Source: an uncultured Planctomycetia bacterium
GTDB lineage: Bacteria; Omnitrophota; Gorgyraeia; CAYWPX01
Direction: 5' to 3'
Length of the DNA: 64,000 nucleotides
Assembly (NCBI GenBank): GCA_964460615.1
Contig: CAYWPX010000003.1
Span: forward strand, 155,028 to 219,027
Shown here: in pieces, positions 1 to 42,269 of the stretch
Position numbering within the stretch: position 1 is the stretch's first letter
Layout of the letters: the number at the start of each line of letters is the position of its first letter
Translations under genes and position numbers: made by a program
Notes under the pieces: generated by a model
Databases searched by the model: none
Seen by the model: only the letters and a program-made list of their open reading frames with translations
What the model was told of the DNA's origin: nothing

Positions 1-3000
1 AGCGCTTTGGCTCCAACTGAAAGCTTATCGTTTAAAGAAATCATTGCTGAAGGCTCTAATTTGAATCTATCGCTCAATCCTACTCCTCCAAAATTAGTTG
101 CATTAGGCTCCCAGAACCATGTACCAGGCTTTGGAGAACCGGGGAAGTATTTTGACGCGCCAAACCCAAGAGCAAGATGCAACTTAGGATCATTGTTAAA
201 TATAACGCCGTTAATATCAATGCCACCGAATGCAGTCCCACCTTGGGTAGCTCCAAGTAAACCTTTAAGACTTATTCTCCCGCCGTTATTAAGCCCGTAT
301 GTTGTGCCAGCTCCTATGTAACCGGCAGGCGTGCTTCCTGTGTTAACGTCAGAATTCGGAATCTGCAGGCCGCCATACATCAAATAATAATTTCTGAAGA
401 ATGTTGCGCCCTGCACCTGAGAAAGCGTAGCTTCTCCGGTAGGAGTCTTTAGCAGGTTAGTTCCGCCTGAAATAACAGTCTGGCCGGCGTTTATAAATAT
501 CGGCTTTGACCATGCACTTGCTATTCCAGCCTGTCCTTCCTGAGAAACTATCCTGACCCTTACATATTTGTGTCCGAAACTCTGATCACAGCTAATTGTA
601 GTCTGAATATCAGAATATGTCTTAGTATAGCCGCCTTCCGGGAACTCAGGGTATTTAGAAGTCTGGACAACATATATAGTCTTTCCATATGTAGCTCCAT
701 TAGGCTCACTAACTGTAACATTAAAGCCTAAATCATTAGGTATGACTCCTGTAACCGTAGGAGCATCCATGGCTTCTGGGATATTCAGATTAGATATACT
801 GCCAACATAAGGCGTACCCTCAACCAAACCAGCCATGTTTCCGGTGCAAGGAGTAATTCTTGCAAATTTAAGGCCCGGTGTCTGGTTTTTAATATATGCC
901 CTGACCTTGCCCGAAGAAGGCTGAACTACATAATCTTCGACAAATACCTCATTGCTATTATCAAAGGATCCGGAAGCATTAGTAGTTACTTCGACCTTAT
1001 AAGCTGTGGCGCCCGGGACCATATCAAATTCTACCCAGTAGTTGCCCTTAGACTCTGTGAAACCGTTAATAGCCTTCAATTGAGTAGGCAAAGCAAAGAA
1101 CATGGATACAGGATCTGACCACGAAACCACCTGCGCTCCGTCTGGGCCATCTTCAAATATTGCGTACCTGACCCACTTGTGAGTTCCGGTGCTGTCATAG
1201 CTTCTATTGAGATACTGGCTCATGGTGGTTCCATCCGGATAGTATTCAGCAACCGGCTTGACAAATTTGCTGGTTGAACTATCAACTGAGAAGTACTGAT
1301 CATTAGATGTCTGTATCGCCAATCTCTGGCCCGGGCTTGTCTTAGTCCAGCTCAACTGATAGCCCATAACCGGGTAATAGTTAACCCCAAAAACCGATGA
1401 AGGCGAAGGCATCTCAGCGCTTGATATCAGCGATTTATCAACAGTTTTTACATTAGCAGATTTTACAGGGCCCATCTTGTTGCCATGAAGAACTATGATA
1501 GCATAGTTATCATAAAGCGTAGTCTTGCTCCAAAGGTTTATATAACCAACTGAAGAGCTCTGGTTCTTACCTACGCCAACTATCTTAACTCCGCTTGCTA
1601 GTTCTCCGTTCTGAACAAAAACAGGGCTAGCGCCATTTACTCCGACAAGCATGTAGGTAACGTCATATTTATCGCTTGTGCCGGGTATTGTTTCGCCGGT
1701 TGCATAAGGAGTATTAAACGTAAGTTTGTTGCCTGAGATCGAAGGAGTTGATAAGCTGGCAGCATTCAAAGCCGATGGCGCATCTATCGCCTGTGATAAA
1801 GCATATTCTGTCCATCCGCCGACTGGGTATCCGTTTTCATCGATCTTTCTTATGCGGACCTTTGTATGGCCTTCGCTCTTATATAAGTAAGCGCTTGTAG
1901 CATCACTTGCGGTACCATAGACTGATACAGGACCAGTGGTAAAGTCTGTAGCTGTAGTCTGGATCTCAAGCCTTGCGCCATTTGCCCAGTTAAGCTCATA
2001 AGCGCTTCCATTAAGAGGGTTCTGTGCATTAATACCGATTTCTTCTCCGGCGCTTACTATCTGAGTAGCCGAGAGATCAACTTCTTTATACTGGTCTATA
2101 GAGGTTAATGACTGGGTTGATTTTACCTGACCGGTTGTTAATCCATGTAAAACAATTATAGCTGCCTTCTTGAAGGACTTATCAGTTATATTCACATAAC
2201 CTGTGCCATCGGCCAAATTGGTTCCCATGCCGATTATCTGTACGCCTGGCGCCAATTCTCCTTCAGCTCCGACAAATACTCCGTCGCCGTCTTCATTGAG
2301 ATTATTGGTACCGACAAGCATATAAGTAACAGTATATTTACTTGAGCTTCCAGGAACAGTATCACCGGTAACACCCTTGAAGGTGATCTTATCATTACCG
2401 ACAGATATATCAGCAAGATTGGCAGATTTTGCACTAGGAGCTACTATATTAATATTTACAGTTGTATACCCTGTAACCGGATGTCCATACTGGTCAACCT
2501 GACGGATCCTCAGTTTTTTGTGGCCAAGCGACTTATATAAGTTAAGAGCCGAAGTTCCGGCAGGAACTGAGTATGTAACAACATTGCTTGTGAACTTGCC
2601 ATCTACTTCTGTGAAATCACCGTCTGTTGTCTGAATATCTATAGCTTTCGAAGTATCAGTCCAGCTGTATGTATATTTACCGTCAAATGTACCTGCCTGA
2701 GCAGTCGGAATAGTCATTCCGGTGACTTTGGCAGTAACATCAAGAATCTGATTTGATACACCTTGAGTTGATTTTGCATAACCATCTTGTAATCCGTGGA
2801 GCACAATGATGGCAAAATTACTGAATGATTTATCCCAAACATTCGCATAGCCTCTGCCACCGGCGTTGGTACCGGAACCGACTACGCTTATAGAGCTGGC
2901 AGAATAAGGCTCACCGTCTTTAACGGTTATAGGACTATTTGAACCAACAACAATGTATGTAACTTTATAACTTCCATTTTCAGGATTTACTGCATTGAAA

Positions 3001-6000
3001 TCAAGCTTAGAACCTACCACATTAACTGTACCAAGCAGGTTAGTTCCCATTACCGCCGGTGCATCTATAGGAACTGAAAGATTGACTTCAGACCAGTCAG
3101 ATGTCGGGAACCCGTTCTCATCAACAGTTCTGACTCTTATCTTCGTATGACCTTCACTCTTATATAATGCCAAACTCTTATCAGTTGCTTTTGTCCCATA
3201 ACTATAAACTGTGCCCGTCGCAAAGTTAGTGTTTGTAGTCTGTATCTCTATCTTAGAAGGATTCGTCCAGTTAAGTACATAACCGCTTGTTACCGAAGGC
3301 GCATCCGCCATGCCTATAGCACGCCTTGCATCAATAACTCTAACTGTGCTCAAGTAACCAGCAAGATCTTCTGACTGTACAGACATTGACCAGCCGGTCT
3401 TATTACCCTGCATTACGACAATAGCTGTATATTTATACTTACTGTTCGTTGTGACATTGACATAACCTTTGCCTTCACCAGCATTCTTTCCCATACCGAT
3501 TATTTCAGTGCCGCTCGCCAATTCACCGTCTTTTACAAATATCGGTTTTCCATCTCTATCAGCATTATCAGTCCCAATAAGTACATACTGAATATCAAAA
3601 CCGGTGTCTGCAGTAACTGCATCAAATTCAAGTCTTTCCCCGGAAGCTGTGATATTCTTTATAGCATCTCCAGCCTTAACAGCCGGCGCCTGGACATTCA
3701 GGCCAAAGCTTGGTGAGAATTCTGAAATAGCCTGGCCATTTGCATCAACGATCCTGACTCTTGCATATGTATGGCCGGCGCTCTTATAAAGATTTTGTGA
3801 AGTCTGGCCGCTTACTGTACCGTAAGTTGACACATTACTTGAGAAATCAGACTTACTTGATGTCTGTATCTCTATTCTGTATGTTGAGTTTGTCCACGTA
3901 AGAGTATATGCAGTGCCGTTAAGAGGATTGGAAGTATTTAATCCGATAGTCGAAGCCGCATTAGCTGATGTTATAGGATTGCTGGACGCAAGAGTTGTTG
4001 TAACCTCTTTATACTGATATGTCGCCCCTTGAGTAGACATAGCATAACCAGTTGCACTAGAACCGTGCAACACTACAATTGCAGCTTTCCCTCCGGATTT
4101 CTTATTCCAGACGTTTACATATCCTGTCGCGCCATCATTCTTACCTGCGCCTATTATCTGGACATCCGAAGCAAGCTCTTTAGTGGTAGGATCTACTATT
4201 GCGCTGGATGAATTTGAAGACCAGACCAATAGATATGTAACCTCTTTACCTGTATCGGCTGTCTTTGCGTCAAATTTGATCCTGTACTGCTTAGCAGGAT
4301 CAATACCGACATTCGTCAAATTAGCATCTCTAACTACAGGCGAATTAATGCCCGCTGACTTAGTAAGTACGCCGCTCCAAGGAGTTTTCTTTATTCCATT
4401 TTCCTTTAAGACATATTTAATATACCTATGCCCCTGGCTCTTATATAGCGGTTGTGAATTTGTTCCGGCAGGGGTTGCATAGACCGATTTATTAGCAAAA
4501 TCTGCTGTGTCGCTTGTCCAGATCTCGAGAACTTCATTATCTTTAAGATTGTAGGACCAGCTGAATACCCCGTCAGTAATAGTAGTCTGACCAAGAAGGT
4601 CTTCCGGTGATTCAACAACAAGCCCATCAAGGCTTATCGGATCGCTTTCCCTGCCTTGTACTGAGCCGTTCACACCTGAATCAGGCCTGATCTTTATGTC
4701 CGTGGCATTGCTGTCAGTAATATAAGCTTTTGCATAAGTTGAGTCATCTGTCGGCTGAGGTATCACAGCCAATGTTTGCCAAGTACCACCTATCTTAACA
4801 AAAACTGAATACTGAGTAACGCCTTCCTGGAGGTCCCAGATAACTTCATTTGTACCTTTGCGGAAGGTTATATCACCCATTCTCTCAGCTTCCGGAACAG
4901 TGATCTGGGAGGTCAAATGAGTAGGCGTAGTCCATGAAGTAACCTGAGAGCTCGGCTTACCGGTAGCAACTTTAGTAACAATGGCATATCTGACATAGGT
5001 GTGCCCGGCACTCTTTACTAACGGCATGCTTGTGCCTGTGCCATCAAAATAATATGTAGAAGAAGTTGCAAAGCTAGTTGTCTTGCTGGTCTGAATAAGG
5101 ATTGCTTTGCCTGCCGGTATCTGTTTTGTCCAGGTAGCGACATAGTTATAACCGCCGCTAACACCGACTGAAGGTTTACCACCGTATTCAGCGAAGGTAG
5201 GAATATGAATATTCATTGAACTTATTGCTGAAGAAGCTTTACCCTTTATCTCTTTTTCGCCTGTTCCTCTAATCGCTATTACTTTAATATGTCCATTCTT
5301 AAACACCGTCCAGTTGGTATTTTCTGTAACTGCTATGACTTCATACTTACCGTTTGCCCCGGATGTGGACTGCATTACAACATACCTGTCAGCTCCGCTT
5401 ACAGCATTCCAACTCAGGTTGTTGCCTGACCATGCAAATCTCGTAGGAGCTGAAGGAGGCGCAGGAACGCTGATAGGAACACTGAATGCACCGGTAAACG
5501 GAGTTACCAGTTCATTGTTCCTCACTAAAGCAACTCTCATGTACTTGTCGCCCCTTGACCTGTCAAGGTAAATATAAGTCTTTCTGTAATCTTTGCCTAA
5601 TTCATATTTATGGACATTCTTAAACGAAGGATCACTAGATGTCTGTATGGATAATGAATAACCTGCCGGCAAAGCATTCCAGCTGAGCTTATACCCATCG
5701 GTAATGCAGTTTAACTTATTTATACCTGCGAAAGACAGCGGATTTGGAACAGCAATATTAACTGCTATCGGGCTAGTAAATCCTGTAACAAGTTCGCTCT
5801 TTTTGCCGGCATCGGTCGCAAGAGCAACTCTAATATATTTTGCGCCGTTAGATTTGAATAAATAGACATAACTATCTTGGCCGTCAAGATTATAGTCTTC
5901 GTATCTACTGAAGCTCGAAGTAACACTTGTCTGTACTACCCATTTATATCCTCTCGGGGCTTTATTAAGATTAAGTCTGTATCCATCGGATATCTGAGAT

Positions 6001-7080
6001 GAGCTAAGGCCGCTCGCTGTCAATGGGTTTCTGGAACTAATGGCAGGAATCCTCATAGCACCTGTAAACTCAGTTACAAAATTCCCATTATCATCTACTA
6101 ATGCCAGCCTTATATAAGTATCACCGTCAGCCCCTACAAGCCTAACATGATTGGATCCGGCAGCGGCAGTATTCCCTTGAATAATTCTAGTATTTTTGAA
6201 TGTTCTATCTTTAGAAGTATTTACTGCAAGCCTGTAACCTGCCGGCAGGTTGTTAAATACCAACTTATTTCCGTCAACTATGTGAGCGCCGATATTAGCC
6301 GCTGTAAGACCGGTTGCCCCAAGCGGATTAAGTACCTGCACATTGTGTAAAGCAACTGCTTTAGAGGCATTGCCTCTAACGAATTGGTTCTTTACTCCTG
6401 TAAGAGCTCTTACTCTTATCGCCTTTGCATTAGTAATAGGAATAAAGAATTTAACGGTGCCATTAACAGGATGATCTATATAATATCTCTTGACATATCT
6501 TTCGCTGGAAAATACCCTGTTTGCTGCATCATTTTCAGTTTCACCAGATAATTTTCTGATAGGTGCAGTGGAAATTTCTATCTCATAACCTGTCGCACCC
6601 GGAACCGATGCAAATGTGAAGAGATTCGTTCCGGTCGTATTCCTGAAAGTACTGGCATTCGGTGGATTAGCCGCTGCGGGAGCTTCAAAACCAAGCCTTG
6701 TCAAATTGCCGGAAGTATAAGCATTACCGGTCTCTCTTTTCTTAATAGAACCGTTAGCCCCTCTTTCCAGCACTCTTATAGTATAAATTCTAACATATTT
6801 ATGCCCAGCGCTGCTTTTAAGATAAACTGAAGTGTTGTTTGCGCCTCTTACTGAATACCCGACGGTCTTACTGTTCGGGAAGGTCGGATCGGATGAGGTC
6901 TGAACATAATATTCTATATCGCCGGTTGTATTAGCCGGTTTGGCCCATGACAACTTATAGTCATTTGTTATCTTGAATGTGGTAGCAACGGGTGGTTGCG
7001 TAGCACGTCTTGGGACCAGGTTTGACAGGTTCAATGCCTCTGCAGGAGTGGTTATCGCAGGATTACCCAACAATGTCACT
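1..7080 (-). repeat. C-terminal array of at least 12 Ig/FN3-like beta-sandwich modules (continues beyond the window)
   Basis: Recurrent module signature …W…P…(I/V)QTS(S/K)xxxF…Y…LYKSxGH(T/K)Y(V/I)R(V/I)…D(E/A)NG…WSE. Examples: GHTYVRYAIV, KYMRVALV, KYIRVALATD, TYIRLALVDDNG, GHKYVRIYTI, GHTKIRVRTVDENG, GHTKVRIRKIDENG, GHKKLRIRQVDQYG. Confidence 0.55.
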
Positions 7081-10000
7081 CCAAGTAATATCGTTGCGAC
7101 AATTCTCTTATTGGCGATCTTTGAAATTGCCTTCAAAAGGCCTGCTCTTAATCTAGGAATAAATCCGATATTGTCAACGACAGAACCTTCTCCGCCATTG
7201 AGGCCATATGTAAGCATTCCGTCTTCATTCTCAGTAGCAACTACAGAACCAAATTTTTCAAGTAACTCATTAAGCTGATTCTCGGCTTCAACCCTGCTTA
7301 CCCCGAATTCACTTGCATAAGAATAGATATCGTAAGAAACATCGTTTGCAAGCATATTGCAATAAGCCATATTGATATTAAGAGTTTTTCTTGAGGTAAA
7401 GTTATGATAGTAATAAGTAACACCGTCCTGCGTATCGCTCTTTATGTTGCTATTGTTGAGAACGAGATTTTCTAAAATTGCCTCCAAATCCTCGTCTTCA
7501 GATTCGCCGTATAACTCCCTTACCTTGTCAAGAGTGATGACATCTCCCTCCATCATCCTGTTATAGAGAGTAGCTGAAGTTAATTCTTCAAATGAAATAT
7601 CAGGATCTGTAATAGCGTTGAACCTATATAACAACCTGCCGTCATCAGAACGTGATTTTATGACTTCTCCGGAGAATATATTATAAGCATAACCAAGATC
7701 TCTATTGGCGGTAGAATAGCTGATCTTACCGTCTTCGCCGAAGTGTTCGACAAGAGCATCTCTATATTCCTTGATTGTAATATAAGCACCACCCTTAGAC
7801 TGGAGATATGCCATAAGGAAGTTAAGGCGTTCCATCCTCTTATCAACTTTTTCTGCGCCGGCCAAAGCTGCATCTGAAATTTCGGCGTCAAGAACAAACG
7901 TATCATTAATATATACAAGCACCTCATTTGCCTCGGCTTCGGTCAAGTCACCTCTCATATAAGCGGCCTGGAGCATTGAAGCGACTTCACCCAGCGACAT
8001 TATCTCGTCGTTATCTATCAAATAACTTAAGTTAAGCTTCCATATTTCCTTATCAAGTTTGTCTTCTTCGGCTTCTTCTGCCTCAGCATGGGTCTTTGGT
8101 TCGCCCAGGACCGCTGTATGTTCCATCATCTCGTGAAGTACCTGCCTAAAGAGAGCTTCCCCGGTTAAATAGCTTGTAACAACAATATCGCCTGAATTAA
8201 TGTCTGCTCTATTAAGATTAGCCGCCTCAATATCAGAAACAACGTGGCCGCTCACATAAAGCATTCTTCCGAATTCGCCTTCTTCGTCCAATAACTGCAA
8301 GGCTATGGAAGGCGCCCCGCTGGCATTTGTAACAAGCTTGACTCTACCGGAATCGATAAAGTTCATTGCTTCATTATACTCATCTGTCCCTGAACCAAAG
8401 TAGTTCCTGAATCCTTCTTCTAATGCCGCATATGCGTCAATATCATTAACAGCTTCATCTACAGCTGCTTCAGCTAATGCATCCTGAAGCTCTAAACCAA
8501 CCTCCGGATGCGATGAACCCTTGTTGATCAATTTGTCTGAATCAATTATCTTCTTACCGGACAGCGGATCTATGCCTCTTCTAAGCATGTCTACCCACGC
8601 TGTTGCACCCACATGGGCAAATCTGTTATCTAAAGGATAAAGTTGTCCGTCTTCGCCGACAATAGCTATGATGCCGCCATTATATTCAACGACTTTACTG
8701 AATTGAGAATATAAAGCTGCGCCCTTTTCATCGTCCCCAGTCAAAAACGCCAACATAGCAGCACCTGCTGTTAATTCAGAGTTAAACGACGGACTGCCTT
8801 CGACAACCTTAGACGCATACCCTTCAAGAGTAACTTTACCGTAAGAAACTTTATTAAGGGATATTTTGTCAAGGTATGGGAGAGTATTAAATGTAGCAGG
8901 ATCTATACCTGTAACATCCTTGGTCGCATATAATGCTAAAGGCGCCCAAATATTGTGAGTAGTAGGCTCTTCGCTTGAATAATTCGGATAAATGAACTTT
9001 CCAGTGCCTTCATCAGTTGTACCAACCAAGAAGTTTTCACCTGTCCACATACCGCCCTGAGACACATTCTTGGTCATCCATGTTAAGGCAAGTTTACCGG
9101 CATCGATATACTTCTGGTTACCGATAACTTGTCCCAATTTGATGAGCGCAGCTCCTGCAGTAGCATTATGTTCGGTTGAGGCCCATTCAATAGGGATATA
9201 ATACTTGGTATCATAGTTATCTCCCAGATAATCGGCGTTTGGATATTCAAGTCCGCCCTTTATCGCTCCGTATATAGGACTTGAAGAGTTCACTATCTGG
9301 AACTGTGACACCCATTCGGCTGCTTTTGTAGCTGCATCAAGGTATTTGGCATCATGGGTCTTTTCATATAAGTTAGTTAAGAACATGATATTCCATGAAA
9401 CAGGGCCAACCGCTATATTACCGGCATTAATCTGGCCGTTAACATCATAACCGTCTACCCACCCGCCTCTAAGGTTTATACCTTTTACAACAACGCTTTG
9501 TTTAAACTGTTTTGATATCAGGTTATCTGCAAGTACCTTAGCAGTCGCAAGATCCTGCTGAGTACCGCTTGCAACAAGCGAAATGCCGGTAACACCGACG
9601 TCATACGTCCAGCTGGAACTGTTGTTATACTGCTTGTAGCTCCTTAAAACTCCGTCAGAAGATATCTGGTCTCTTAAGAATGTTTCCATATTGGCTACGG
9701 AAACAACCGCCGGGCCGGTCTTCAAGGCATCCATAAGTTTCGGCCCGCCTACAATACCTCCGATTCCTAAGGTAGCAATGAGTACCGCTACAAACGCTTT
9801 TTTATCTTTTACCCATTTTATAAGCTGGTCTATCCTTGAAACATTAGGAGTAAGTATTTTATCTGTGATCTGAATAGCTTCTTGAACATTAGTATCATCA
9901 ATAGCATCCTGTAGTAACGAAAGTATTCCATCATCACCTCTGGCTAACAATGCCTCTCGTATCTCAGGATAATAAACCCCTTCGGTTTTGGCATATTCAA

Positions 10001-13000
10001 TAACGTCGTATGTCAATTGGTTACTGTCGGTGTCATATAATGTAAGTCCATCAAGTCTTTCGAGCGTCCTTGAATCAAGGCCCTGAGCAGACAAGACTTC
10101 AAGAGCAAATCCCTTTTCATCCTGAGTTAAGGACTTAAAGAGAATATCCGCAAAATTCAAATTGTCTATTTCATCTGTCTTTGTGAGGAAGAACAAGATC
10201 TCTATTTTTGCGTCTATGGATAACTCCGTAAAATCCTGTACCTTGCGTATCGCAAGCATAACCTCGGTAATATCAGCCGGCGGTGCCCTGTTACCAAGAG
10301 CATCCAACTTGACATGCCTTAGCTCTTCTTTTAATTCCATCTTGAGCAGGTCCTTGGAATCAAGTATGTCGTTATCAAGAGTATAGGTCGGGATACCATT
10401 ATCATCATAAGAAACTCTCGCAAGCTTGCTGTTCCAGACAACTATATTGAGGTTAGTACTAAGCGGGATACCCAGTTCTATCGCTGCTTCCTTAAGATTC
10501 TTGGCCATCCTCAGGTTTTCATCATTAGAATCAAATCTGGAGAGGTCGTCACCGCCTAATGTTGTAATCAATCCTTCAAAAGTCCCGTAATATATTATGG
10601 TCGTATTGCCGGGCCTTCTGGATATAGATGAAGTATTTACGCTTGAAGGCGTAACATGGACCGCTCCAAGAGCCGTGAAGGCATCCTTAATATTCTTAAC
10701 TATCTCCTGATAACCGGCTCCTTCTATAGGTATCGTTCCTTCGGGACTATCCGTATAATCGCCCAATCCCATATTCCCCGCCGGATCATCCTTAGTATCG
10801 CCTACACCCATCAGGGTCTGCCATGTGAAGATATTGTGGCCGTCTGAACCGTTTGTAGTAAATAATTTGTTTGTGGCATACCTTGCATCATTGTTATTAA
10901 GATCATCCAATAATTCCTGCAACGCATTCCTATAATCAGGCTTCAGTTTACTTGAATACATCTCAACGCCTCTTATCTGAGTATAAGAAGTCAGGAAGGC
11001 CCTCAAATATGTCATCTGGTCTTCAAGCGTCACTCTTTCGCCGCTCTTATAGGTCACCTCAACAGGATGTGGTAATACCAAGACACCTTTTTGAGCAGTT
11101 ACAAAGTTTATAACATCATTTATCGGCTGACCGTCCCTTATTCCTGATCTTTCGAAAGAAACATAACCCGTCGGGCCGTAATTAGGATCTTCTGGGTTGG
11201 TTGACCTGTTCTTTTTGAAATATTTTGCATTAACTTCTTTATAATTCGAACAACCCAATCTTTCGGGGCCGTATTTCTGGAAAAGAATGAGCGATAACTG
11301 ATAGGAATTGGTCAAGTCGGATATCTTACCTTGTAAATCTTCTTTGGTAAGTTCCAGCCCTTCATACCAATCCGGATGCAGATTCTTCTCGTTAAAGTTA
11401 GAATTAAATTGCATTCTCATCTTTTCAGCCCTATTAACACCGGTACCGAAAGCATTAGGATCAAAATAAATTCCATCCATTGTATTTACCATATTTACTA
11501 CTGGTGAGCTATTAAGGAACGTCTTATATGCATCGGCACTGCCTCTATTAGGGAAATAACCTATCAGATGCTGGCCGCCGGTTATACCTCTGGGGTCATC
11601 AATAAAATCAAATTCAACACCTGTAATAACTTCAATTCCAAGCTTATCCGAAGAAGCGTAGCCGGCAGAAAGAACCTCGCCTGCTCTTAAAGCTTCATAA
11701 TGGCTCCTAAAGGTGTTATGATCAATGATACCTATTGAGCTCAAGCCCTTCATCCATGCTTCGAGCACAGCTCCTGCCGGAGTAAGGTTGCCATCTGAAT
11801 AATAGGTATGGTAATGCATATCAACTCTGCCTTTTAATTCAAAGGTTCGTTTTACCAAATTTTCATTACTCTTTATGGCCTGTAGTGCCTGTAAGCGCCT
11901 TGCAACCCTGGCATCTTCGCTTACTTCATTCGGAAGCTTGTCATTGACCACTACAAATCCGGCTACAACCTTTTCAGCTGCCTTAGCTGAACCGCTGTCA
12001 AGTATGGCTTTCATACCATCGATTATAGTCTTATGCATCGCAGGAGTGGCATAATTGATGGCAGTATTATAAGCTGCTACCGCCTTTTCTATCTGGCCAA
12101 GAGCCATAAAGTTGGAAGCGTCTGCAAGTGCCGTATAAGCATCTTTTCTACCGATATAAGACAGGTTCATGAAGTTGCCATTCTGATCATACATTTCAAC
12201 CCTGTCTTTGTTTATGATAATATAACCGCCTGATATCGCTCCGCCACTAGTAACATAAAAATTATATTTCTCCCCATCAGGTGTCATAACAACAGGGCTT
12301 AATGTATATTCTGAATTGACATCTCCCCTTATAAGCTCAATAAATGTTGCATCAAGAGAGGCCTCGTGCAGAGCGCCAATTTCAGCAACATCAAGATCAA
12401 ACATGGTCCTGATGTCATTCTTTCTCTCACCAATTGCGCCAATAAGGTATGACTCTAATCCACCGTCTCTAAGGACCTGATTAAACATTTCTATAGGATT
12501 CTGTCTCTGGGCGCGGGTCTTTCTGTTCCATCTGCCGGGAACATTTTCAGTGCTCAACTGATCCAACCAATCATTGACCATGCTTAAGCTATGAGACCCT
12601 GTAAGGTTTTTACTACTGGTAAGCTGTTCGGCCAGAGATAAACTTCCATTAATGATCGCGCTGATCTGCTCAGGCTTAATTGCCTGAAGGATCGTTGCCA
12701 AATTGCTCAATTTGTCATCGTCAGTCTTTGCCATTTTGTATGCTTCATTAACAAAAAGCTTCTGATCATGCCTTACAATATTAAATATTTTTTCAAACTG
12801 TACCGAATCAAAATAAGGCAGGAACTCAGAAAAACCACCTGTAGGCCTTGAGAACATCGTGCCGCCAAAGTCAATATGTACTATATCCTGATTGGTACCC
12901 GAATTATCCGAGACATCATTGAAATCCGGGCTATTGAACATCATATTCCAAGGAGTCCTATCAGAATCCCTTAAGAGAGCTGATAGCATCAATGCCCCAT

Positions 13001-16000
13001 ATACCCTTGCATCATCATGATATCTCTCCAAGAGATTCAACCCGCCATCTTCATATCCAGGCAAAAATTCTATGGCCAGCCTCAGTTCTTTCTTGCGCTG
13101 ATATGGCCCGCCTGTTGCGCTCAGATCTCTCTCATACGGTTTGCCTTTAGCATAGTCTTTAACTTTATAACCGTTCTCATCTACCCTGAAACCTTCTACG
13201 GATATATATGCCCCATCCCTGTCATGTATATAGGCATATACCAGAGATGTCTTTGGTACCGGTAAACCCATTAGCGCAAAGAACCTCTGTGTCATATAAT
13301 CGATCAGTATCGTATATTCATTGCCGCCTTTTACTAAATACAATTGACCTGTGTGTTCATCCTTATAGAGATCAATAGGATTGGTTGTCGGCCTTGTAGG
13401 CACCCCAAAGAACTTCTGATAAGAAAGATTCTCAAAGTCTGCCTGGGAAATCAGGTCCTGACCGTTAGCGGCTTCACTGGCAGTCTTATTGGTAATATCA
13501 GAATAATTAGCCGGATCCTCCCTATTAGATTCTAAGTCAGCGCTGATCAATCTGTATACTATAAAGACATCTATAGGTATGCCGTCAATTTCATAATTAC
13601 CAGTTGTATTAAAATAAGACCTGAGAATATCTCTCGGTCCGTTGGAGCGGATCTCTTCTCTTATTCTGATCACGTCATCGTTAATACTATTATTGATAGC
13701 CTGGAGATACACATCAAAACCCTCAGGCCTCATATTAACAAGTGCTTTTGCCGAAGCATTCCTAAGTTTGTCCCTGTCATCATCTGTACCGCTCAAATAG
13801 TCATCACCGTTCAAGGCCAGGTTTACAAGCTCTTTCCTGATATTCTCGGCAACTTCAGCGTCAATCTTAGAACCTTCGCCATAATTAAGAGATCCGATAA
13901 CATCTATCATCTGTATCTCGTTCTCCGAAGGCGCATGATTCGAGATATTTGCCACTAAAGACTCCAGTCTTTCAATACCATAAGACGACCCTATGCTCTT
14001 AAGAGTCCCGGCGGCAGCCTTAACTAGTTCAATGGTATTATCAGCTTCTGAATTTTCTAAAATATTAAGAAGAAGCGTTATTCCTCTTTCTCTTAATTCC
14101 TTGACAGAAGCATTATAGCTGGGGTTTGAAGGATCTATCAAAGGCGAATTATCCTTGATCCTACCAAGCATATCCTTAAGCACATGTCCTGCAATGGTAG
14201 TTCTGATCTGCATTCTTATATTAATGTAGTAATCGCTGTCGTATGGGAAATAAGCTTTGGCTATGTTACCATCTACATCTTCAATGATATCAAGCAGTCT
14301 CTGCATCATCGTTGGATTATTCTCAACTCTTATCGGATTTATCGCCTCGGTAATAGCCGGCCAACCCCAGAATTCTTTATCATCACCTAAGGATTTAATA
14401 CATCTATTGAACGCCATTTCCCATATACGGATATTTTTGGATTCAAGCATTTCAGTGATAATTTCTTTGGCGTTTTTCCACAGGTCTTCATCAGTGAATT
14501 TATTCTTCAGTACTCCAAATATTAATTCAAGCGCCTGCTGCCTGTAATAATTTGTCCCAAAGGTATCTTCCATCTCAAGGTTAAAATACATCCACCTGAG
14601 GTTCCACAATGTTTCTATTCTCTTGGGAAGCTTGTCGGGTGACAGATCTCTCAGTTCATTTCTGGCGGCAGTGATATATGCGCTAGCATAATTCTGAGTA
14701 GAACTACCTAACCCAACATTTTCTTCCCATTCAGAGGTTCTTAGCCCCGGCGCCATAGCCTGATAAAGTGCAAGTTTTTCATATCTAGTCAAACTCGGAT
14801 GGTTAGCAATAATAGCATCCAGCTTATCAAACCTTCCGGACCCTGAGAAATTGGAACCAGCCAAGTCAAGCCATGATGCTGGATCAGAGCTGATCAATGT
14901 TAGCGCCTCTGACATGGCATTTCTTGCCTCATTGGAGTAGGTCGCGGCGGTAAGAACCGTCAAGCTAAATAGATGCTCCCACCCATATTTCAGCCCGCTA
15001 TTATTGTATATCTCTACGAGGTATTGTTTCCTTGCAAGTTGCGTTGAGCTTGGGTTGTTTGTCACATATGTATTATATGCCTGTACAAGTGGAGTAAGCT
15101 TGTCTAATGAAATCTGATGTTTGGCTTTTACAACTGCTTTTCTTGCAGCGTCTGATACTGGTTTTGTTGCTAATACGGTTTCGATCTTTAGCATCAGTTT
15201 ATTCTGGAGGGCGACGTTGGAGGTAGAAAGAATGCTATAAACTAGATTTGGCAATTCTGAAGCCAATTTAGCAGCTAAAGCCGCGAGATCAGCACCATCA
15301 GTTTTTATTAAAGTAAGCTCTGGATCAAATAAAGAATCAATAGCCAATTCCAACCTTCCTTCATCTGTTTCTGAATGCAGGCTGGCCGCTATTTGACCAA
15401 AAAGTATATGCGATTGTTCATTATCAGCACTCAACGCCTGTTTAATAGCTTCAGGATAATTGCCTATGGCAATATGCCCATAATTAACCTGGGCTTTTAT
15501 TTCATCTATTAGATCCTTGTATTTTTCGCTTTCTGCAAAATCACCTACATTTATCGCCAGCATAATATCCAAAACATCAAATATTGGCGTCAGTATACTA
15601 AGCTTCTGAGTTATATCATTTACAGAGCTAAATGTCAGGAGATCATTGAGATTGGTTATATTAAGCCCTGCTGCTATGCCGGCAACTTCAGGATTAAATG
15701 AGGTTGTCATATTATTTCTGCCAATAAGGAGATTTCTAATAAAGTTTGTGGCAGACTGGAAGTATGTATTAGCATTTGCGCCCAATTCACCGGAAATATA
15801 TTTAGCAACTGCTTCATCAATGCTGAATTCAACTCCATATTCGGTTTCAAAGGCAGCTTTAAATGAATTGAAGTTAGTTAAACCCATAAGCCCGGACAAT
15901 TCTGCTTCAGTAAGCTTATTATTGACTTTGGAGTATAGTAAATGCCCCACAATATCATGCCACTGTCCGACGTACCTGTCAGTTGAAGCGCTGCTCATAT

Positions 16001-19000
16001 TGATCAGTTTCGCAACTTCTGAGAAGAGGTTCAGGAAACCTATATCAGTAGTAACCATTTCTTTGTCTTCTATAACAGGGTTACCATTATCATCAATTCC
16101 AGTCTGTATACTCACTGTTTCGACTTTAAAATCTGACCTATTGGCATTTACTATATCCATAAATGCGGATATAGACTCCTCAGAAACTCCCAAACTTCTC
16201 AATCTGCTTTCTATTGACGTTGTAAGAGTTGTGCTGAAATAATTGTGTACCGGCGGCTTGCCGTATGGAACCCTGGTGGCCGGATCAAGGCCTAAGGTAT
16301 CCATCATAGCATCCCTTAGATCAACAGCAAGGTTGTATTTTTCAAAAGAGTTATTGAGAACTGTATGCTTCTGTATCTCTTTTGTAAATATCTGCCAGAT
16401 ACCCTTATCCTGATACCTCACCATTTCTATAATAGCGCTTCTTATACCGTTTAATTTGGGTAATCCTACTGCATCATAAAGATCAAGGATCTTCTTGGGA
16501 TTATCTCTAAAGTTGCCATTTGCTTCGGCAAGCTCGGTAAGTTTCTTGAATTTCTCCTCAACGCTTGGGGTAGTAGTCTGAGCGCTCCCCCATGTATTAT
16601 ATTGGGCAGCAACATTATTTATATCCTTATTGGTTGAGATATTAGTAATTGCCCCCACTCCTGCTGAAATAAGCGGGCCGACAATATATGCCAGGGCATA
16701 TAACGAACCGACTACCCACGCGCCCCAGACAACTGGGTTAGTAGCATCAGTAGTATACTTGAAGATATTTCCGAACAAACCAGTTAATAGTATTACAAAA
16801 GGAGCATGACCAATAGTGCGAATAAATGTCCCGTATATACCTTTTGAATCAAGGAACTGCGATAATCCCAGGAACGGCTTCAACCAAATACTTGCTTTAT
16901 TGTATTCTTCCTGCTGTTTTGCCGTAAGATCATGAGGTACGTTGTTCCAGAAAGAAATAAGCGGGCTAAGTAAATACGCTCCTGATACTGCTATACTAAA
17001 CGGTGACAAGCTCAAAGCAGCCCAAGTCAATAAAGCACCACCAATTATTGTTGGTATCAACTCAAGATTAGCAAGGTCAGATCTCAACTGAAGCCAAGGA
17101 GTTAAAGTTGTGGTATTTCCCTTTTCATCAGTTCTAGTGTGAGTATAGCCCGGGATCAATAAAGTAATCATATCCCATGGAATTTGTAACAGATATTTAA
17201 TGGGAAGCAACTGGCTAATCTTAGCATCATCTTCTACAGAAGATGTAGATACGAATTTTGCCTTCTCGCCAAGTAATTTAATAAATGTCTCCCACATCGC
17301 CACTATTGCAAGTGCCGGATAGAATAAAGTTGAGTAGGATACAAAATTGAGCATCTTCTTAGGTGTCTTTGCCATATTAACAAAGAAAATAATAAGAGGC
17401 GACATCAACGTCAACACTGTGATAACGAGGAATTGCGGCCCCACAACACGGCCTGCCTCAAGGGGAACATATGAATCATATAATAACGCCTGTATCAGAT
17501 AGAATACGAATACGAAGTTAAGAGGCAAATTGGATACAGGCACAGTAACATCCAGTTTCTCTATGGTAGTCATCTGTGAACTCCAGATCTTACCTCTCAT
17601 GGCGTTCTTAAAGACGCCGAATAAGAACCCTGCTTCACCTGCAAGTATGCCTTTCTGGAGTAACGACATATCTCCCAGTATATTCGATACATAGTTCCAT
17701 ATCTGGCCAAAGTAACCACCTACGCTGGTAACGGTATTATGTTCCACTCCGCCGCCGCCCGTAAACAAACTCAATAAACCGAATGTCGCAGCAAAAGCTC
17801 CCAATGCCCATAAGGCATCGGTGGCTTTCTTTGTTCCGAGGAATATATAATCCCTGAAGAATTCTACTGTACCGCCGGACCATTTTTTGTGCCTTACATA
17901 GAATTGTGTGAAGTTCTCAGGGAAACCTTCCATGGCGGATACACCTCTGGCGAATACACCGTAGTTACCGTGTTTTTTCATAAACCTCGCCTGCAGAGAG
18001 AACGCCAAGTCTTCGGAAACTATTTCTGGCCATCCCTGTCCGGACCTGCCGTCATAGGAACTCCATCTTACATCTCTCCATACGCTTCTTCTGTAGAGAA
18101 CTCCATGGCCGAGAAGCATTACGAATCCGCCTTTATTTCTCGGATGCTGGTACTGGTTCCAGTGGTGGTCAACGCCCGTGCCTACCTCATCGCTGAATTT
18201 TGTCTGGATCGTAGGATCGAATACGTGATTCGACTGTACAAACGCAACCTCATCATCATAGAAGTACGGCAGCATCTCCTCAACGTAATTCTCTGAGAAT
18301 ATTTCATCCTTATCGGTTAGAAGAAGGAAGTCATCAGCATCTGTTGTTTCAGCCTGCAGTGACAGGTTCATTTGCCCTGCTTTTGACCCGCCCTCAACAT
18401 CGGATATTATTATTTCAACATCCGGATATTTTGCTCTTAAATATTCAACCGTATCAAGTAAATATTGATAACGGATCCTCTTCTTTTCATCACTAAGTTT
18501 CTTGTTGGCAAGTATACTGCTGGAAATAATTACTCTATAGTTGCCATGGTGTCTAAACGACTGATTAACAACTGATTCAAGGGCCTTTAAATTGCCTCCA
18601 TCTTTACCGGGTTCACCTATACCGCTTGACGTCGGATACAACGCAGTAACGGTCTTCCCTCTAAAATCGCTATAATTCTTTAGCGGCATATCACCCTTAT
18701 CAAAATATGACATACCTTCCACAACCCAGTTGAAAGCACCATATAACCAGAATATGCCCCAGAACGCGAATATGTTGATCAGATTGAGCTTGATCCAAGG
18801 ATCCTGTTCAGATATAAGTTTTAGTTCAGGTATAATGGTCATCGCCGCAGCGGATAATGATAATCCGATGATAGTGCCCCAGTTCCTCCAGCTCTTACGG
18901 GATTTTTCACTGGAGTTTTTGTTTTCGCCGGCTTTAATGAATTTGGATATAAATGTGAATAAGGCTCCGAGGCCGGGTATTATTTCCATATTTAACTGGC

Positions 19001-22000
19001 TTGAAGATTCCTGGGCTGTTTCAGCCAATGCCTGTTTAAGCCTCGCTATTATGCCCCTTGCTTCTTCTTTTGTAGCCTCATCAGCTGTAGCCAGATTACC
19101 TGAATCGAGCTCTCTCTCAAGATCGTCGATCATTTTCTGTGAGTCTAGCGCACCGGTATTTTCATCCGTCAAGGTTGTACCTTCTTCATTGGCTAGTTTA
19201 TTTAGGAACTTATCAGAAAGCTCTTTATAGACCTGGGCAGCTTTTGTTTTCACATCATCAGTTATACCCAGGTTATGAGCATCAAAAGCCCATCTCTGCA
19301 GAGTCGATAAAGCCGGGACAAGGAATAATTCAGAAGTAAAGTCAAGGTTTCTCAATGCTTCCATTAACGCTATTTCATAAGCAACATTTTCTTCGGTTGC
19401 TATTTCATCATAGCAATATTCGTAAATACCCGACAACTCTACTACAAGAACATCAACAGCTTTCTCTGAACCCATCTCTGCTAGTTTTTCAACATAGTGA
19501 TTTCTCAGTTCAGCCAGCTCAGGCCTTTCAGCGGCCGTTGGGTAATTGGCAATTACTATTCCGATATTTTCTATAAGCTTACCAAGGGCAATAACTGCAT
19601 CTCCCGAATCATTCTGGCCTGCATTGACTAAGAAGGTCAGTATAACTTCCCTCAGTTCTATATCGGACTTCGACCCTTCGATCCTGTTACCCATGTATTC
19701 CAAGGCATCGCTATTGAAGGCTATATTGTCAAGGGCTTCAAGTATATTGCTCTTTTGTATATTAGTGGTAGCGGCTTTGTAATAAGCAAAAGATTTTTCC
19801 AATATCAAGATCATAAGCTGTAAATGCTTCCCGCTATCCTGGGATTCATCATAAGCCTGAGCTCTTAGTACAGCTTCATTTAAAGCGTCTTTTGCCGCCT
19901 CTACTATCAAAGGTGAAGAACTATTCAGTCCATAAATGGACAATAAATCGCTTACGATGTTAGTAGTGTTCATTGTAGCGCCTGTTACGCCCAGTCTAGC
20001 CCTCGAGAGAACTTCTTTGTAAATATTTAGACCGCTCAGAGCCTTATTTGGATCGGTGCTTCTCACTCTTGCAAAGGCCTCTACTGAGATCCATTTGTCA
20101 AATTCGGCTCCAAAATCAACACCACTATTAACTGCAGCAATAATTGTATCGATCTTATTTATCATATCTGATTCGGCTGAACCCAATATTCCTCTTGCGT
20201 ATGCTATAACAAGCTCGTCTTTCTGTTCCTGCGTCAAAACATTCACATTTGGCCTTAAATTAATAATATTTAAGGCTGTTGACACATCAGTTTTAGAGAC
20301 AACCTGTATCAGGATACCGCCAATGGAAGTATTAGAGACCTTCTGTATCGTAACGCCAAGTTTAGCGGCGTTATATTCAAAAGCCTTTATCCAGAAATCT
20401 TCATTTTCGAGTGTTGGGCTGATATCATGACCGGGCCTAAAATGTATGAGCCCGCCGGCTTTTGTGATCCTGAGCGCTTCGCTTATAAAATTATCAATTG
20501 ACATCATATCAGGAGCTTCATCTTCATAATCAACAATAGAGTCTATCAATGCCAATTTATCAACCGTTGAATCACCAATACTAAGCCTGCCTTTGGTAGC
20601 ATCACCCATTGTGAACTGGGCATTCAAAGGAACTCCATTAGAAGGCAAATTCCTACTTGTAAGGCTATTCAGGAAGTCTTTAAGCTTAAGGCCCTTTAAT
20701 GTAAACGCCCTTTCAGTCTGAGGTGAATTGAGATATCTTATTAGCTTTCTCATAAGATTAAGGACTATCGGGGACTTAACAAAACCGATTACCGTGACCC
20801 CGTCCATTCTCCCGGCTGTAAGAACATCATTGCCGTCTTTTGATAATGATACGTAAAGATCTCCGGCAGTTAATGAAAGAGGGTTCAATATATCACCGGC
20901 AGAATATGATGTAGCAGACGGTTCTGACTGATCAACGACGAGCTCTTTAGCCGGTTCTCCTGTTACTATAATACCGACATTATCTATAAGGTCTTTATAT
21001 GAATTATGAGTGGATATATCAAGACCATTATAGGACTTATTCTTAAGGTAAGATTCTGCAGCGATAAACGCAATAGGATTGGTTACTGCAACGGATACAT
21101 TCTTGATCTTACCGTTATATGCTACCTCGCTGATCCACTTCATAACCGCAAGATACACATTGATATCCTCATCGGTTGAAGTGATCGGGGAAGTCGGGCC
21201 GAAGGATGAGATGTTCATATTGGAACCACTCATTGAGTATGATATCTCGCCTTTCACTACTCCATTGACAACTATGTCATAAACATTTATACCTTTTTCA
21301 ACAAGCAGTATCTGGTCAAGATCTGACTCAACAACATTTTCTATTGCAACGACTATATTGGCATCACCCTTAAGTACCACACCTTTGCCGCTTGCTATCT
21401 GAGCGTCGATCTTGGCCTTAACCTGGTTATCAGAGAGATTATAGGATATCCATGCCTGGGTAGCTTCATCAAACATCTGGATATTTTTAAGGAATCTCGA
21501 ATAAATAGCTAAGGTCGCTGAATCCAAAGCTGCAGGAAGATGGAGCTTCTTACCTTCGCTTCTTGCTATAGTAACTATCTTATTTAATTCAGTTACGAGA
21601 TCCCCGCCTATCTTATTAAGTTTGAATACCTGGACTTCATCTACCTTAGAAACATATCTTACATCAGCGTTCACAGCATCAAATGACGCCGAGTTAAGGA
21701 AGTCAGCCATATCGTTATCGCTGGCATCTTCCAAGACCATAGGTGTAGCAGTATTCTTTATAGCGTTAAATTCCGCTAGTGCAACCTGGGTTGAAGGGAA
21801 TCTTTCATTAAATGCGTTGCGCATCAAAGAAATTGCCTGCAGATTACTGAATGACGCCGCAAACTGATCGCCATCAAGACTTGGGTTACCGGCCAGATCC
21901 TTTACGGCTACCAGCGCTTCAACATCTATGATGACTACATTACCATTTTCGTCCACTCCGTAGTTATCCGCGAATCTTGTTATGTCAAGATCTACATAAC

Positions 22001-42266: not shown

Positions 42267-42269
42267 CTA
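42267..42269 (-). other. Single in-frame TAG inside a YD-repeat (…ITTYNIYGDM-TAG-SVQDKNGRKTYYKNFRDSKGDLIKRYEK…)
   Basis: Verified by reverse-complementing 42181-42281. The same frame and repeat register continue on both sides. The next in-frame ATG is 166 codons downstream (41769-41771). Confidence 0.9.

What the first reader, a model, noticed from the sequence alone, without database searches (positions are those of the whole stretch)
7020..7300. Signal-peptide-like segment with an AEA cleavage motif in the middle of the ORF, directly upstream of the Ig/FN3 array
KIANKRIVATILLGVTLLGNPAITTPAEA looks like a textbook Sec signal (n, h and c regions). In frame it could be an internal start-transfer or signal-anchor that flips the C-terminal Ig array outside. 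Alternatively it may be a relic of an independent secreted protein gene fused in by stop-codon loss. A TTG at 7134-7136 would yield MKAISKIANKR….
Basis: seen in the sequence. Interest (0 to 1): 0.6.

Follow-up and report, generated by a model that had tools for sequence, protein, structure and literature searches.

The report
Internal export signal in giant gene
A textbook-looking secretion signal sits about 18,450 codons into a giant (at least 20,819-codon) gene of an Omnitrophota bacterium, exactly where a long array of beta-sandwich modules begins. It is most likely the export signal of a protein cassette built into the giant gene, which is a known kind of feature, though how it works is unsettled.

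Summary
KIANKRIVATILLGVTLLGNPAITTPAEA is encoded at 7121..7035. It lies in frame at residue 11,716 of an open frame of at least 14,088 codons (42266..3). That frame continues a 6,730-codon ORF across a single TAG.

The peptide has a +3 n-region, a 13-residue hydrophobic core, an N-P break, Pro at -4 and A-E-A. It lies 15 residues before the first of 21 beta-sandwich modules, and none of these modules occurs upstream.

Nearest relatives are Omnitrophota proteins. The gene fits the published class of giant, multi-transmembrane Omnitrophota proteins.

[quoted passage not shown] So this gene does carry captured export signals in frame.

The segment is probably the export signal of a similar cassette, working as an internal N-in/C-out start-transfer and possibly cut by signal peptidase I. 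There is a topological parity conflict with the previous signal that I could not resolve. No orthologue of the region exists in the databases searched. Internal initiation at TTG 7136 is possible but unsupported.

Verdict: new member of a known kind, moderate interest.

The parts
7035..7121 (-). Signal-peptide-like segment KIANKRIVATILLGVTLLGNPAITTPAEA (aa 11716-11744 of the large frame). Hydrophobic core is 7103..7065; c-region NPAITTPAEA is 7064..7035. The predicted SPase I site lies between 7035 and 7034 (A-E-A | L).
7134..7136 (-). In-frame TTG, 11 codons before the hydrophobic core.
   Evidence: Upstream context is CTAGATTAAGAGCAGGCCTT, with only AAGAG/AGG as Shine-Dalgarno-like bases.
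471..6992 (-). Array of 21 beta-rich modules (type A x12, type B x5, type C x4), aa 11759-13932. The first module starts 15 aa after A-E-A.
   Evidence: FN3-like fold is weakly supported. The basic, N/S/T/G-rich composition resembles extracellular proteins.
7122..8531 (-). Acidic orphan region directly upstream (aa 11246-11715; pI 4.28). It contains three winged-helix-like units at 7856..7197.
   Evidence: No homologue found. Composition. A low-confidence AlphaFold model (pLDDT 55) has top fold matches that are all tandem winged-helix proteins.
9741..9797 (-). Preceding internal hydrophobic segment AFVAVLIATLGIGGIVGGP (aa 10824-10842). It is positionally equivalent to the N-terminal signal peptide of the stand-alone secreted protein P0002.
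   Evidence: BLASTP E 2e-41, aa 10826-11244 against P0002 aa 7-393. There is no start codon within 30 codons upstream.
8532..9659 (-). (alpha/alpha)-toroid domain (C5-epimerase C-terminal / PL10 pectate-lyase-like) between the two signals.
3..42266 (-). Giant open frame holding the segment (at least 14,088 codons, running off the low end of the window). It also holds RHS repeats, a DEAD-like P-loop, a GT2 synthase module with flanking transmembrane (TM) helices, and a PHP domain.
42267..62459 (-). Upstream 6,730-aa ORF in the same frame, ending in TAG 42267-42269 inside a YD/RHS repeat unit. It has an N-terminal signal, TSP3, FKBP, C39 peptidase, beta-helix and Laminin_G_3 domains.

Best explanation
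The segment is a genuine Sec-type export signal. It belongs to a cassette (acidic winged-helix-like region, then signal, then beta-sandwich array) that sits in frame inside a giant multi-transmembrane gene of an Omnitrophota bacterium.

Proposed mechanism. It acts as an internal N-in/C-out start-transfer (type II signal-anchor-like) sequence. The K/R-rich flank KAISKIANKR stays on the cytoplasmic side. The 13-residue core IVATILLGVTLLG enters SecYEG as a hairpin. The C-terminal array of more than 2,340 residues is then threaded to the outside. The N-P break, Pro at -4 and A-E-A|L give a canonical signal peptidase I site, so the array may be cut free from the membrane-embedded upstream part.

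Shown:
- the sequence features;
- the in-frame internal position;
- the exact coincidence with the start of the array;
- the sharp change in composition across the segment;
- that a neighbouring internal hydrophobic segment of the same ORF is homologous in position to an N-terminal signal peptide.

Inferred: the orientation, translocation of the array, and cleavage.
For: 1. n/h/c anatomy and A-x-A. The combination is rare in shuffles, at 0.7-7%.
2. K/R bias of 5 in the N-flank against 2 in the C-flank.
3. All 21 modules lie downstream and the first is 15 aa after A-E-A.
4. Upstream 470 aa: pI 4.28, D+E 18.5%, helical and winged-helix-like. Downstream array: pI 8.87, N+S+T+G 36%, similar to the predicted extracellular parts of the same protein.
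5. Relatives of the modules (P0001, P0003, P0004) all carry N-terminal signals. P0001, the only relative of the first module, also has a hydrophobic stretch (aa 287-305, KD 1.70) just before its array.
6. [quoted passage not shown] It has no start codon upstream, so it can only act internally. PHP (cytoplasmic families) lies before it and a pectate-lyase-like toroid after it.
7. The ORF's own N-terminal signal has the same style: a long n-region and a 13-residue core.
8. The published class of Omnitrophota giant proteins has numerous internal TM segments (doi 10.1101/2023.11.21.568195; doi 10.64898/2026.06.07.730766).
Against: Parity conflict. The previous hydrophobic segment (aa 10,824) also has an N-in charge bias, and the toroid after it has secreted relatives. 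No hydrophobic segment lies between the two (KD < 1.0 throughout). On a single chain, the N-flank of the finding's segment should therefore already be outside.

Other weaknesses:
- The core is short, and a crude Hessa-scale sum is +3.4 kcal/mol, making it weak as a membrane span.
- The winged-helix assignment rests on a pLDDT-55 model.
- There is no orthologue to test conservation.
- No signal-peptide predictor was available.
- Two arginines lie at +8/+9 of the would-be mature end.
Confidence: 0.45

Rival explanations
1. Passive relic. The segment is the former N-terminal signal (or signal-anchor) of a once independent array gene that was fused in frame. The chain is already outside from the signal at aa 10,824 onward. 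The weakly hydrophobic segment slips through SecYEG or lies at the membrane surface, and it is not cleaved. The array is outside, but not because of this segment.
For: - Captured-signal precedent 900 aa upstream.
- Parity: no TM between aa 10,843 and 11,721.
- Weak membrane propensity of +3.4 kcal/mol by crude sum.
- Toroid relatives are secreted.
Against: All three signal regions, including a canonical A-x-A with Pro at -4, are intact. This is in a region evolving so fast that no homologue is detectable. By contrast, the captured signal at aa 10,824 has lost a canonical cleavage site (L-M-D-A aligned to P0002's I-Y-A|S). Intact features suggest selection.
Confidence: 0.2
2. Separate product. 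Translation also starts internally at TTG 7136. This gives a stand-alone pre-protein MKAISKIANKR... with a normal N-terminal signal peptide, which is exported and cleaved independently of the giant chain.
For: - In-frame TTG 11 codons before the core gives an n-region of normal length.
- A promoter-like TTGACA-16 nt-TAGATT (10 of 12 matches) lies at 7177..7150 on the same strand, ending 14 nt before the TTG.
- This reading would resolve the parity conflict.
Against: - The Shine-Dalgarno-like context is weak (AAGAG/AGG), against AAGGA before the ORF's real start.
- A start codon within 10 codons is expected by chance roughly one time in three.
- Promoter-like sites in the region occur at the shuffle expectation (5 against 4.2 +/- 2.1), and 20 such sites lie on this strand in 64 kb.
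- There is no GC3 step at the boundary.
- The sibling signal at aa 10,824 has no start codon nearby.
Confidence: 0.12
3. Stop-transfer anchor. The segment spans the membrane N-out/C-in, closing a periplasmic loop (toroid plus acidic region) opened by the segment at aa 10,824. The array would then be cytoplasmic.
For: Simple alternation of TM segments, counted from PHP (inside) and the toroid (outside). P0001 shows the same order: signal, domain, hydrophobic stretch, array.
Against: - The charge bias is the wrong way round (5 K/R on the would-be outer side).
- An A-x-A site would be pointless at the inner face.
- An array of 21 beta-sandwich modules with extracellular-type composition, whose relatives carry signal peptides, is unlikely to be cytoplasmic.
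Confidence: 0.13
4. Chance. The segment is a hydrophobic helix or linker with no topogenic role that happens to look like a signal peptide in a protein of more than 20,000 residues.
For: With loose criteria, shuffles give 2.7 signal-like segments per protein. Even at the observed stringency the relaxed rule gives 7%. AlphaFold gives the helix low confidence.
Against: It sits exactly at the sharpest architectural and compositional boundary of the C-terminal 3,000 residues. It is the only hydrophobic segment after aa 10,843.
Confidence: 0.08

Closest known systems
Giant multi-transmembrane proteins of Omnitrophota (West-Roberts et al. 2023, doi 10.1101/2023.11.21.568195; 2026 preprint doi 10.64898/2026.06.07.730766)
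   Same: - An ORF of tens of thousands of codons.
- An N-terminal signal and a C39 peptidase in the N-terminal part.
- TSP3, beta-helix and lectin-type extracellular modules.
- Many internal TM segments.
- A DEAD-type P-loop domain and carbohydrate-active domains.
- Nearest homologues are named Omnitrophota.
   Different: - A SecA_DEAD Pfam match was not obtained; only sub-threshold ResIII/DEAD.
- The frame is split by one TAG.
- Those papers treat internal hydrophobic segments as anchors, and the 2026 one suppresses internal signal-peptide calls as chunking artefacts.
- Here one internal segment is shown to match a stand-alone protein's N-terminal signal.
N-terminal Sec signal peptides cleaved by signal peptidase I
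   Same: Positive n-region, 13-residue h-region, helix breaker, small residues at -3 and -1 (A-E-A), Pro at -4.
   Different: It is not N-terminal: about 18,450 codons precede it in frame. Cleavage is unproven.
Internal start-transfer / type II signal-anchor sequences of polytopic membrane proteins
   Same: An internal hydrophobic segment with a positive N-flank, followed by a large domain of extracytoplasmic type.
   Different: The core is shorter than a typical span and is followed by a cleavage-type c-region. The preceding segment has the same polarity, so simple alternation fails. From memory, this is comparable to the 'topological frustration' described by Gafvelin and von Heijne (1994).
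Internal signal sequences of polyproteins cut by signal peptidase: flavivirus polyproteins (PMC6756788), tomato ringspot virus NTB-VPg (PMC5010249), and, from memory, the Bradyrhizobium FbcH cytochrome b/c1 precursor
   Same: A signal-like hydrophobic stretch (14 aa in NTB-VPg) inside one long ORF. It is followed by a signal-peptidase site that separates two functional products.
   Different: Those cases are experimentally shown and mostly eukaryotic-viral. Here nothing is shown beyond sequence, and the ORF is bacterial and about ten times longer.
P0001 (1,539 aa, JGI metagenome contig Ga0247841_10000597) and P0002 (571 aa, JGI)
   Same: P0001 is the only relative of the first module. It has 11 module copies preceded by an internal hydrophobic stretch. 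P0002 has a signal peptide plus a toroid that aligns end to end with aa 10826-11244 of the giant frame.
   Different: Both are ordinary-sized stand-alone genes. The hydrophobic stretches of P0001 and of the finding do not align in sequence. The upstream domains are unrelated.

Membership tests
Sec/SPase I signal peptide | Located at the N-terminus of the translated product | tested here: not met
   In frame at aa 11,716 of an open frame with no stop upstream for 11,715 codons. It would be met only if TTG 7136 is used as a start, which is unproven.
Sec/SPase I signal peptide | Positively charged n-region, hydrophobic h-region of about 7-15 residues, polar c-region with small residues at -3/-1 | tested here: met
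   KAISKIANKR / IVATILLGVTLLG / NPAITTPAEA|L.
Sec/SPase I signal peptide | Positive call by a trained predictor (SignalP, DeepTMHMM) and experimental cleavage | not testable with these tools
   No such predictor was available. Only rule-based scans and shuffles were run.
Lipoprotein (SPase II), Tat and type IV pilin-like signals | Lipobox with Cys at +1; twin-arginine S/T-R-R-x-F-L-K; G|F-T-L-I-E prepilin motif | tested here: not met
   Read directly from the sequence: there is no Cys, the n-region has K-R rather than R-R, and there is no prepilin motif.
Transmembrane signal-anchor (uncleaved) | Hydrophobic span of about 19 or more residues with favourable insertion energy | tested here: inconclusive
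   There are 21 uncharged residues, but the core is only 13 and is broken by N-P. KD over a 19-residue window is 1.68. The crude Hessa sum is +3.4 kcal/mol, against +0.2 to +2.5 for most helices of the GT2 module.
Omnitrophota giant proteins | ORF above about 7,000-30,000 aa with numerous TM regions | tested here: met
   At least 14,088 codons (at least 20,819 across the TAG). At least 12 hydrophobic segments.
Omnitrophota giant proteins | Omnitrophota origin | tested here: met
   The best homologue of the DEAD-like region is 63% identical: MDP3789433.1, Candidatus Omnitrophota bacterium. Others are also Omnitrophota/Omnitrophica. The source contig itself is absent from the collections.
Omnitrophota giant proteins | C39 peptidase in the N-terminal part; SecA-DEAD-like domain | tested here: inconclusive
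   Peptidase_C39 scores 33.8 bits at ORF1 aa 1131-1212. For the ATPase, only ResIII at 21.7 bits (cut-off 22.5) and DEAD at E 0.03 were found, with no SecA_DEAD hit.
Fibronectin type III / Ig-like domain array | Match to fn3/Ig profile models | tested here: not met
   No fn3 or Ig family at E <= 1 except faint Ig-like hits at E 0.06-0.15. One distant relative (P0004, E 4e-4) does carry Pfam fn3.
Fibronectin type III / Ig-like domain array | Seven-strand beta-sandwich fold | tested here: inconclusive
   AlphaFold model of module 1: pLDDT 70, 7 strands. Foldseek top hits are nearly all FN3, but with E >= 0.048 and TM about 0.45.

The most novel reading that the evidence does not exclude
The C-terminal part of this giant gene is a chain of complete secreted-protein cassettes captured in frame together with their own export signals: signal plus toroid at aa 10,824, then signal plus beta-sandwich array at aa 11,722. 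The second signal, still carrying a canonical A-E-A site, would mark a real processing point. The giant precursor would then behave as a bacterial polyprotein, cut by signal peptidase I after a cytoplasmic cleavage or internal initiation. This would give the first concrete cleavage point for Omnitrophota giant proteins.
Probability: 0.25. Interest if true: 0.65.

Novelty: new member of a known kind. Interest (0 to 1): 0.4.

Why it matters
Giant Omnitrophota proteins are known to have many internal hydrophobic segments. Nobody knows whether they are made and kept as one chain or cut into pieces, and the published work says the lack of known cleavage points blocks structural analysis.

This locus offers two things. 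First, it gives direct sequence evidence that at least one internal hydrophobic segment is a captured N-terminal signal peptide, which suggests giant genes grow by swallowing whole secreted-protein genes. Second, it gives a specific, testable candidate cleavage site (A-E-A|L at window 7035/7034).

If the site is not used, the segment is just one more membrane-targeting element of a known protein class.

Tried and rejected
1. Orthologue test. aa 11,301-11,856 was searched against 5.8 billion proteins and against genome, viral and metagenome contigs, and nothing was found. An exhaustive HMMER search of aa 11,101-12,300 against 1.84 billion representatives gave 4 hits, none covering aa 11,246-11,720. 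Conservation of the stretch therefore could not be tested.
2. The source contig is not on record.
3. A shared 'YILHEALE' domain between P0001/P0005/P0006 and our VLHEMMEH was rejected: hhalign aligned 9 columns with probability 0.4%.
4. A second C39 peptidase that I read by eye at aa ~1,560-1,740 has no Pfam support. A double-glycine (LNGG) C39 site 30 aa upstream of the segment was considered and dropped because it does not fit the leader consensus.
5. The hydrophobic stretches of P0001 and the finding do not align; only the modules do.
6. Recent foreign insertion is not indicated: there is no GC or GC3 step at the boundary.
7. Stop-codon reassignment as the cause of the long frame was rejected, because no TAA or TGA and only one TAG occur in 20,819 codons.
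8. Parity by counting TM helices after the GT2 domain is ambiguous, at 7 or 8. There is no PDB or NCBIfam relative of the GT2 module to settle it.
9. Searching for more module arrays with alignments A3/A4 failed, because the alignments were too divergent for the tool.
10. The glycine-rich tail at aa 13,933-14,088 was checked as a possible outer-membrane barrel, with no hits.
Full report
**Observation**

The quoted peptide is real but lies on the minus strand. The reverse complement of window 7121..7035 reads KIANKRIVATILLGVTLLGNPAITTPAEA. It is residue 11,716-11,744 of an open frame that runs from 42266 down to base 3 without a stop, giving 14,088 codons, and leaves the window.

Immediately upstream, in the same frame and separated only by TAG 42267-42269, is a 6,730-codon ORF starting at ATG 62459. 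The TAG falls inside a YD/RHS repeat unit (NIYGDM*SVQDKNG). RHS repeats continue after it, and the next in-frame start codon is 69 codons further on, with no Shine-Dalgarno. The segment therefore lies near codon 18,450 of a frame of at least 20,819 codons.

**Anatomy of the segment**

- The n-region is KAISKIANKR.
- The core is IVATILLGVTLLG (13 residues), followed by an N-P break.
- The c-region ends P-A-E-A, followed by L.
- There is no lipobox cysteine, twin arginine or prepilin motif.

By Kyte-Doolittle hydropathy (KD) over a 19-residue window it scores 1.68. It is the only hydrophobic segment after residue 10,843. A crude sum on the Hessa scale is +3.4 kcal/mol. That is weaker than most helices around the glycosyltransferase module (+0.2 to +2.5) and fits a signal-peptide core better than a stable span. 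The 15-residue flanks hold 5 K/R on the N side and 2 on the C side.

**Is it more than chance?**

With loose rules, shuffled versions of this very long protein give 2.7 signal-like segments each, so length alone is a caveat. At the observed stringency the three features together occur in 0.7% (A-x-A) to 7% (relaxed -3/-1) of 1,000 shuffles, with thresholds chosen after the fact.

The stronger argument is position. Profile HMMs of the three module types downstream find 12, 5 and 4 copies. All lie between residues 11,759 and 13,932, and none scores significantly anywhere in the preceding 18,000 residues. The first module begins 15 residues after A-E-A.

Composition changes sharply across the segment:

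| Region | pI | Composition |
|---|---|---|
| 470 residues upstream | 4.28 | 18.5% D+E |
| Array downstream | 8.87 | 36% N+S+T+G |

The array's composition resembles the predicted extracellular N-terminal parts of the same protein.

**The array**

Pfam gives no fn3 or Ig hit. AlphaFold on module 1, using an alignment of the 12 paralogous modules, gives a 7-strand all-beta domain at pLDDT 70. Foldseek against the PDB returns almost only FN3 domains, but weakly (E >= 0.048, TM about 0.45). A distant relative (P0004) carries Pfam fn3. 'FN3-like beta-sandwich array' is reasonable. 'FN3 family member' is not shown.

**Context**

- The upstream ORF carries an N-terminal signal with a long n-region, plus TSP3, FKBP, Peptidase_C39, beta-helix, Laminin_G_3 and RHS repeats.
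- The large frame carries DUF7402, a DEAD/ResIII-like P-loop, a GT2 synthase domain flanked by a cluster of TM helices, a PHP phosphoesterase domain and an (alpha/alpha)-toroid.
- The nearest homologues of the DEAD-like region are Omnitrophota proteins (63% identity to MDP3789433.1). A relative of P0001's N-terminal domain is also from Omnitrophota.
[quoted passage not shown] In the catalog of that class, 94% of the long proteins carry TM helices or a signal peptide (doi 10.64898/2026.06.07.730766).

**Relatives of the region**

Word-based protein search and scans of genome, viral and metagenome contigs found nothing. An exhaustive HMMER search of residues 11,101-12,300 against 1.84 billion representatives gave four hits.

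P0001 (1,539 aa, an ordinary gene among housekeeping genes) has 11 copies of the module. It has an N-terminal signal and a second hydrophobic stretch (aa 287-305, KD 1.70) about 30 residues before its first module. So the only relative keeps a hydrophobic stretch before the array, and it too is internal. The two stretches do not align in sequence. No relative starts at the peptide.

**The most informative result**

P0002 is a 571-aa stand-alone protein with a signal peptide, a toroid domain and a dockerin. It aligns end to end with residues 10,826-11,244 of the giant frame (31% identity, E 2e-41).

In that alignment the internal hydrophobic segment AFVAVLIATLGIGGIVGGP (residue 10,824) lies opposite P0002's N-terminal signal peptide. 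There is no ATG, GTG or TTG within 30 codons upstream of it, so in the giant gene it can only act internally.

Its surroundings are coherent with an inside-to-outside start-transfer. The PHP domain before it matches cytoplasmic families. The toroid after it matches PL10 pectate lyase and C5-epimerase models and secreted P0002. This shows that the gene contains at least one secreted-protein cassette captured together with its export signal.

**Interpretation**

By analogy, and from its own features, the finding's segment is most likely the export signal of the next cassette: an acidic region with three winged-helix-like units, then the signal, then the array. The winged-helix reading comes from a single-sequence AlphaFold model (pLDDT 55). 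Its secondary structure repeats H-(E)-H-H-E-E three times, and its Foldseek hits are all tandem winged-helix proteins: RPC62, ESCRT-II, ScpB and ROQ, down to E 1.8e-4. An N-terminal cytoplasmic domain, one N-in signal-anchor and an extracellular repeat array is a common bacterial architecture.

**The unresolved problem**

Both hydrophobic segments (10,824 and 11,722) have N-in polarity, and nothing hydrophobic lies between them. On one continuous chain, the N-flank of the second should already be outside. The possibilities are:

- the upstream region is cytoplasmic after all, meaning the toroid is not exported;
- the downstream cassette reaches the translocon as a separate molecule, through internal initiation at TTG 7136 or cytoplasmic cleavage (the protein carries a C39 peptidase);
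- the segment is a relic that slips through the translocon;
- the segment is a stop-transfer and the array is cytoplasmic.

Counting helices after the GT2 domain does not settle parity, giving 7 or 8. P0001 shows the same order of elements.

For internal initiation, the TTG has only AAGAG/AGG upstream. A TTGACA-16-TAGATT promoter-like site ends 14 nt before it. Such sites occur about once per 3 kb on this strand, and their number in the region equals the shuffle expectation.

One detail favours function over decay. The captured signal at 10,824 has lost a canonical cleavage site, while the finding's segment keeps Pro(-4)-A-E-A intact in a region that evolves too fast for any homologue to be detected.

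**Comparison with what is known**

In function it is closest to internal start-transfer or type II signal-anchor sequences. It is also close to the internal signal sequences of polyproteins cut by signal peptidase: flavivirus (PMC6756788), tomato ringspot virus NTB-VPg, where cleavage follows a 14-residue hydrophobic region (PMC5010249), and, from my memory, Bradyrhizobium FbcH.

It fails the defining N-terminal position of a signal peptide unless TTG 7136 is used. The gene belongs with the Omnitrophota giant proteins. The 2026 preprint suppresses internal signal-peptide calls on later chunks as chunking artefacts. The alignment with P0002 suggests that some such calls may reflect real captured signals.

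**Verdict**

- It is a new member of a known kind: an internal topogenic signal in a giant Omnitrophota membrane protein.
- The mechanism is unsettled, and there is a concrete, testable candidate cleavage site.
- Interest is moderate (0.4). The most novel reading not excluded is a bacterial polyprotein of captured export cassettes processed at A-E-A|L, at about 25% probability.

Noticed in passing
window 42267-42269 (minus strand): A single in-frame TAG splits a frame of at least 20,819 codons into a 6,730-aa ORF and an open frame of at least 14,088 aa. It sits inside a YD/RHS repeat unit, and RHS repeats continue after it. The next in-frame start codon is 69 codons downstream, without a Shine-Dalgarno. 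It could be a recent nonsense mutation, a sequencing error or read-through.
   Followed up: partly
window 9741-9797 and 8532-9659 (minus strand): The internal hydrophobic segment at aa 10,824 and the following (alpha/alpha)-toroid align end to end with a stand-alone secreted dockerin protein (P0002, E 2e-41). The internal segment lies opposite P0002's N-terminal signal peptide. This is evidence that the giant gene captured a whole secreted-protein gene in frame.
   Followed up: yes
window 16629-18884 (minus strand): A complete membrane-embedded GT2 synthase-like module lies in the middle of the giant frame. It has two TM helices, a Glyco_trans_2_3 domain and a cluster of 6-8 TM helices. It has no PDB or NCBIfam relative.
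   Followed up: partly
window 7150-7177 (minus strand): A promoter-like TTGACA-16 nt-TAGATT (10 of 12 matches) ends 14 nt upstream of the in-frame TTG 7136. It is statistically unremarkable: 20 such sites occur on this strand in 64 kb.
   Followed up: partly
window 7197-7856 (minus strand): Three tandem winged-helix-like units lie directly upstream of the signal-like segment, in an otherwise orphan, very acidic region (pI 4.28). This fold is usual in cytoplasmic proteins. The model is of low confidence.
   Followed up: partly
window 3-470 (minus strand): After the last module the sequence turns glycine-rich, with alternating hydrophobic residues (…GVGLSDRFKLEPSAMISLNDKLSVGAKA), and runs off the window. 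It could be the start of a beta-barrel or beta-helix. There are no Pfam or PDB hits.
   Followed up: partly
window 29016-29474 (minus strand): A DEAD/ResIII-like P-loop (PAGTGKT) domain is 63% identical to a fragmentary Candidatus Omnitrophota protein (MDP3789433.1). It is probably the divergent SecA/DEAD-type ATPase reported for giant Omnitrophota proteins, but no SecA_DEAD Pfam hit was obtained.
   Followed up: partly
L001 10001-14620 (P0001): The only relative of the first module is a 1,539-aa stand-alone protein. It has an N-terminal signal, a ~250-aa domain shared with cytoplasmic-type Omnitrophota proteins (Fic, cNMP-binding contexts), a second hydrophobic stretch and then 11 modules. 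This is the same puzzling order of two N-in-type signals seen in the window.
   Followed up: partly
window 6973-7278 (plus strand): A 101-aa TTG-initiated ORF on the opposite strand overlaps the finding's coordinates. It is most likely a shadow ORF of the giant minus-strand frame.
   Followed up: no
window 62749-63999 (minus strand): The gene upstream of the giant ORF encodes a Laminin_G_3 (concanavalin-like lectin) protein. Its open frame runs off the high end of the window, so another large surface protein may precede the giant gene.
   Followed up: no
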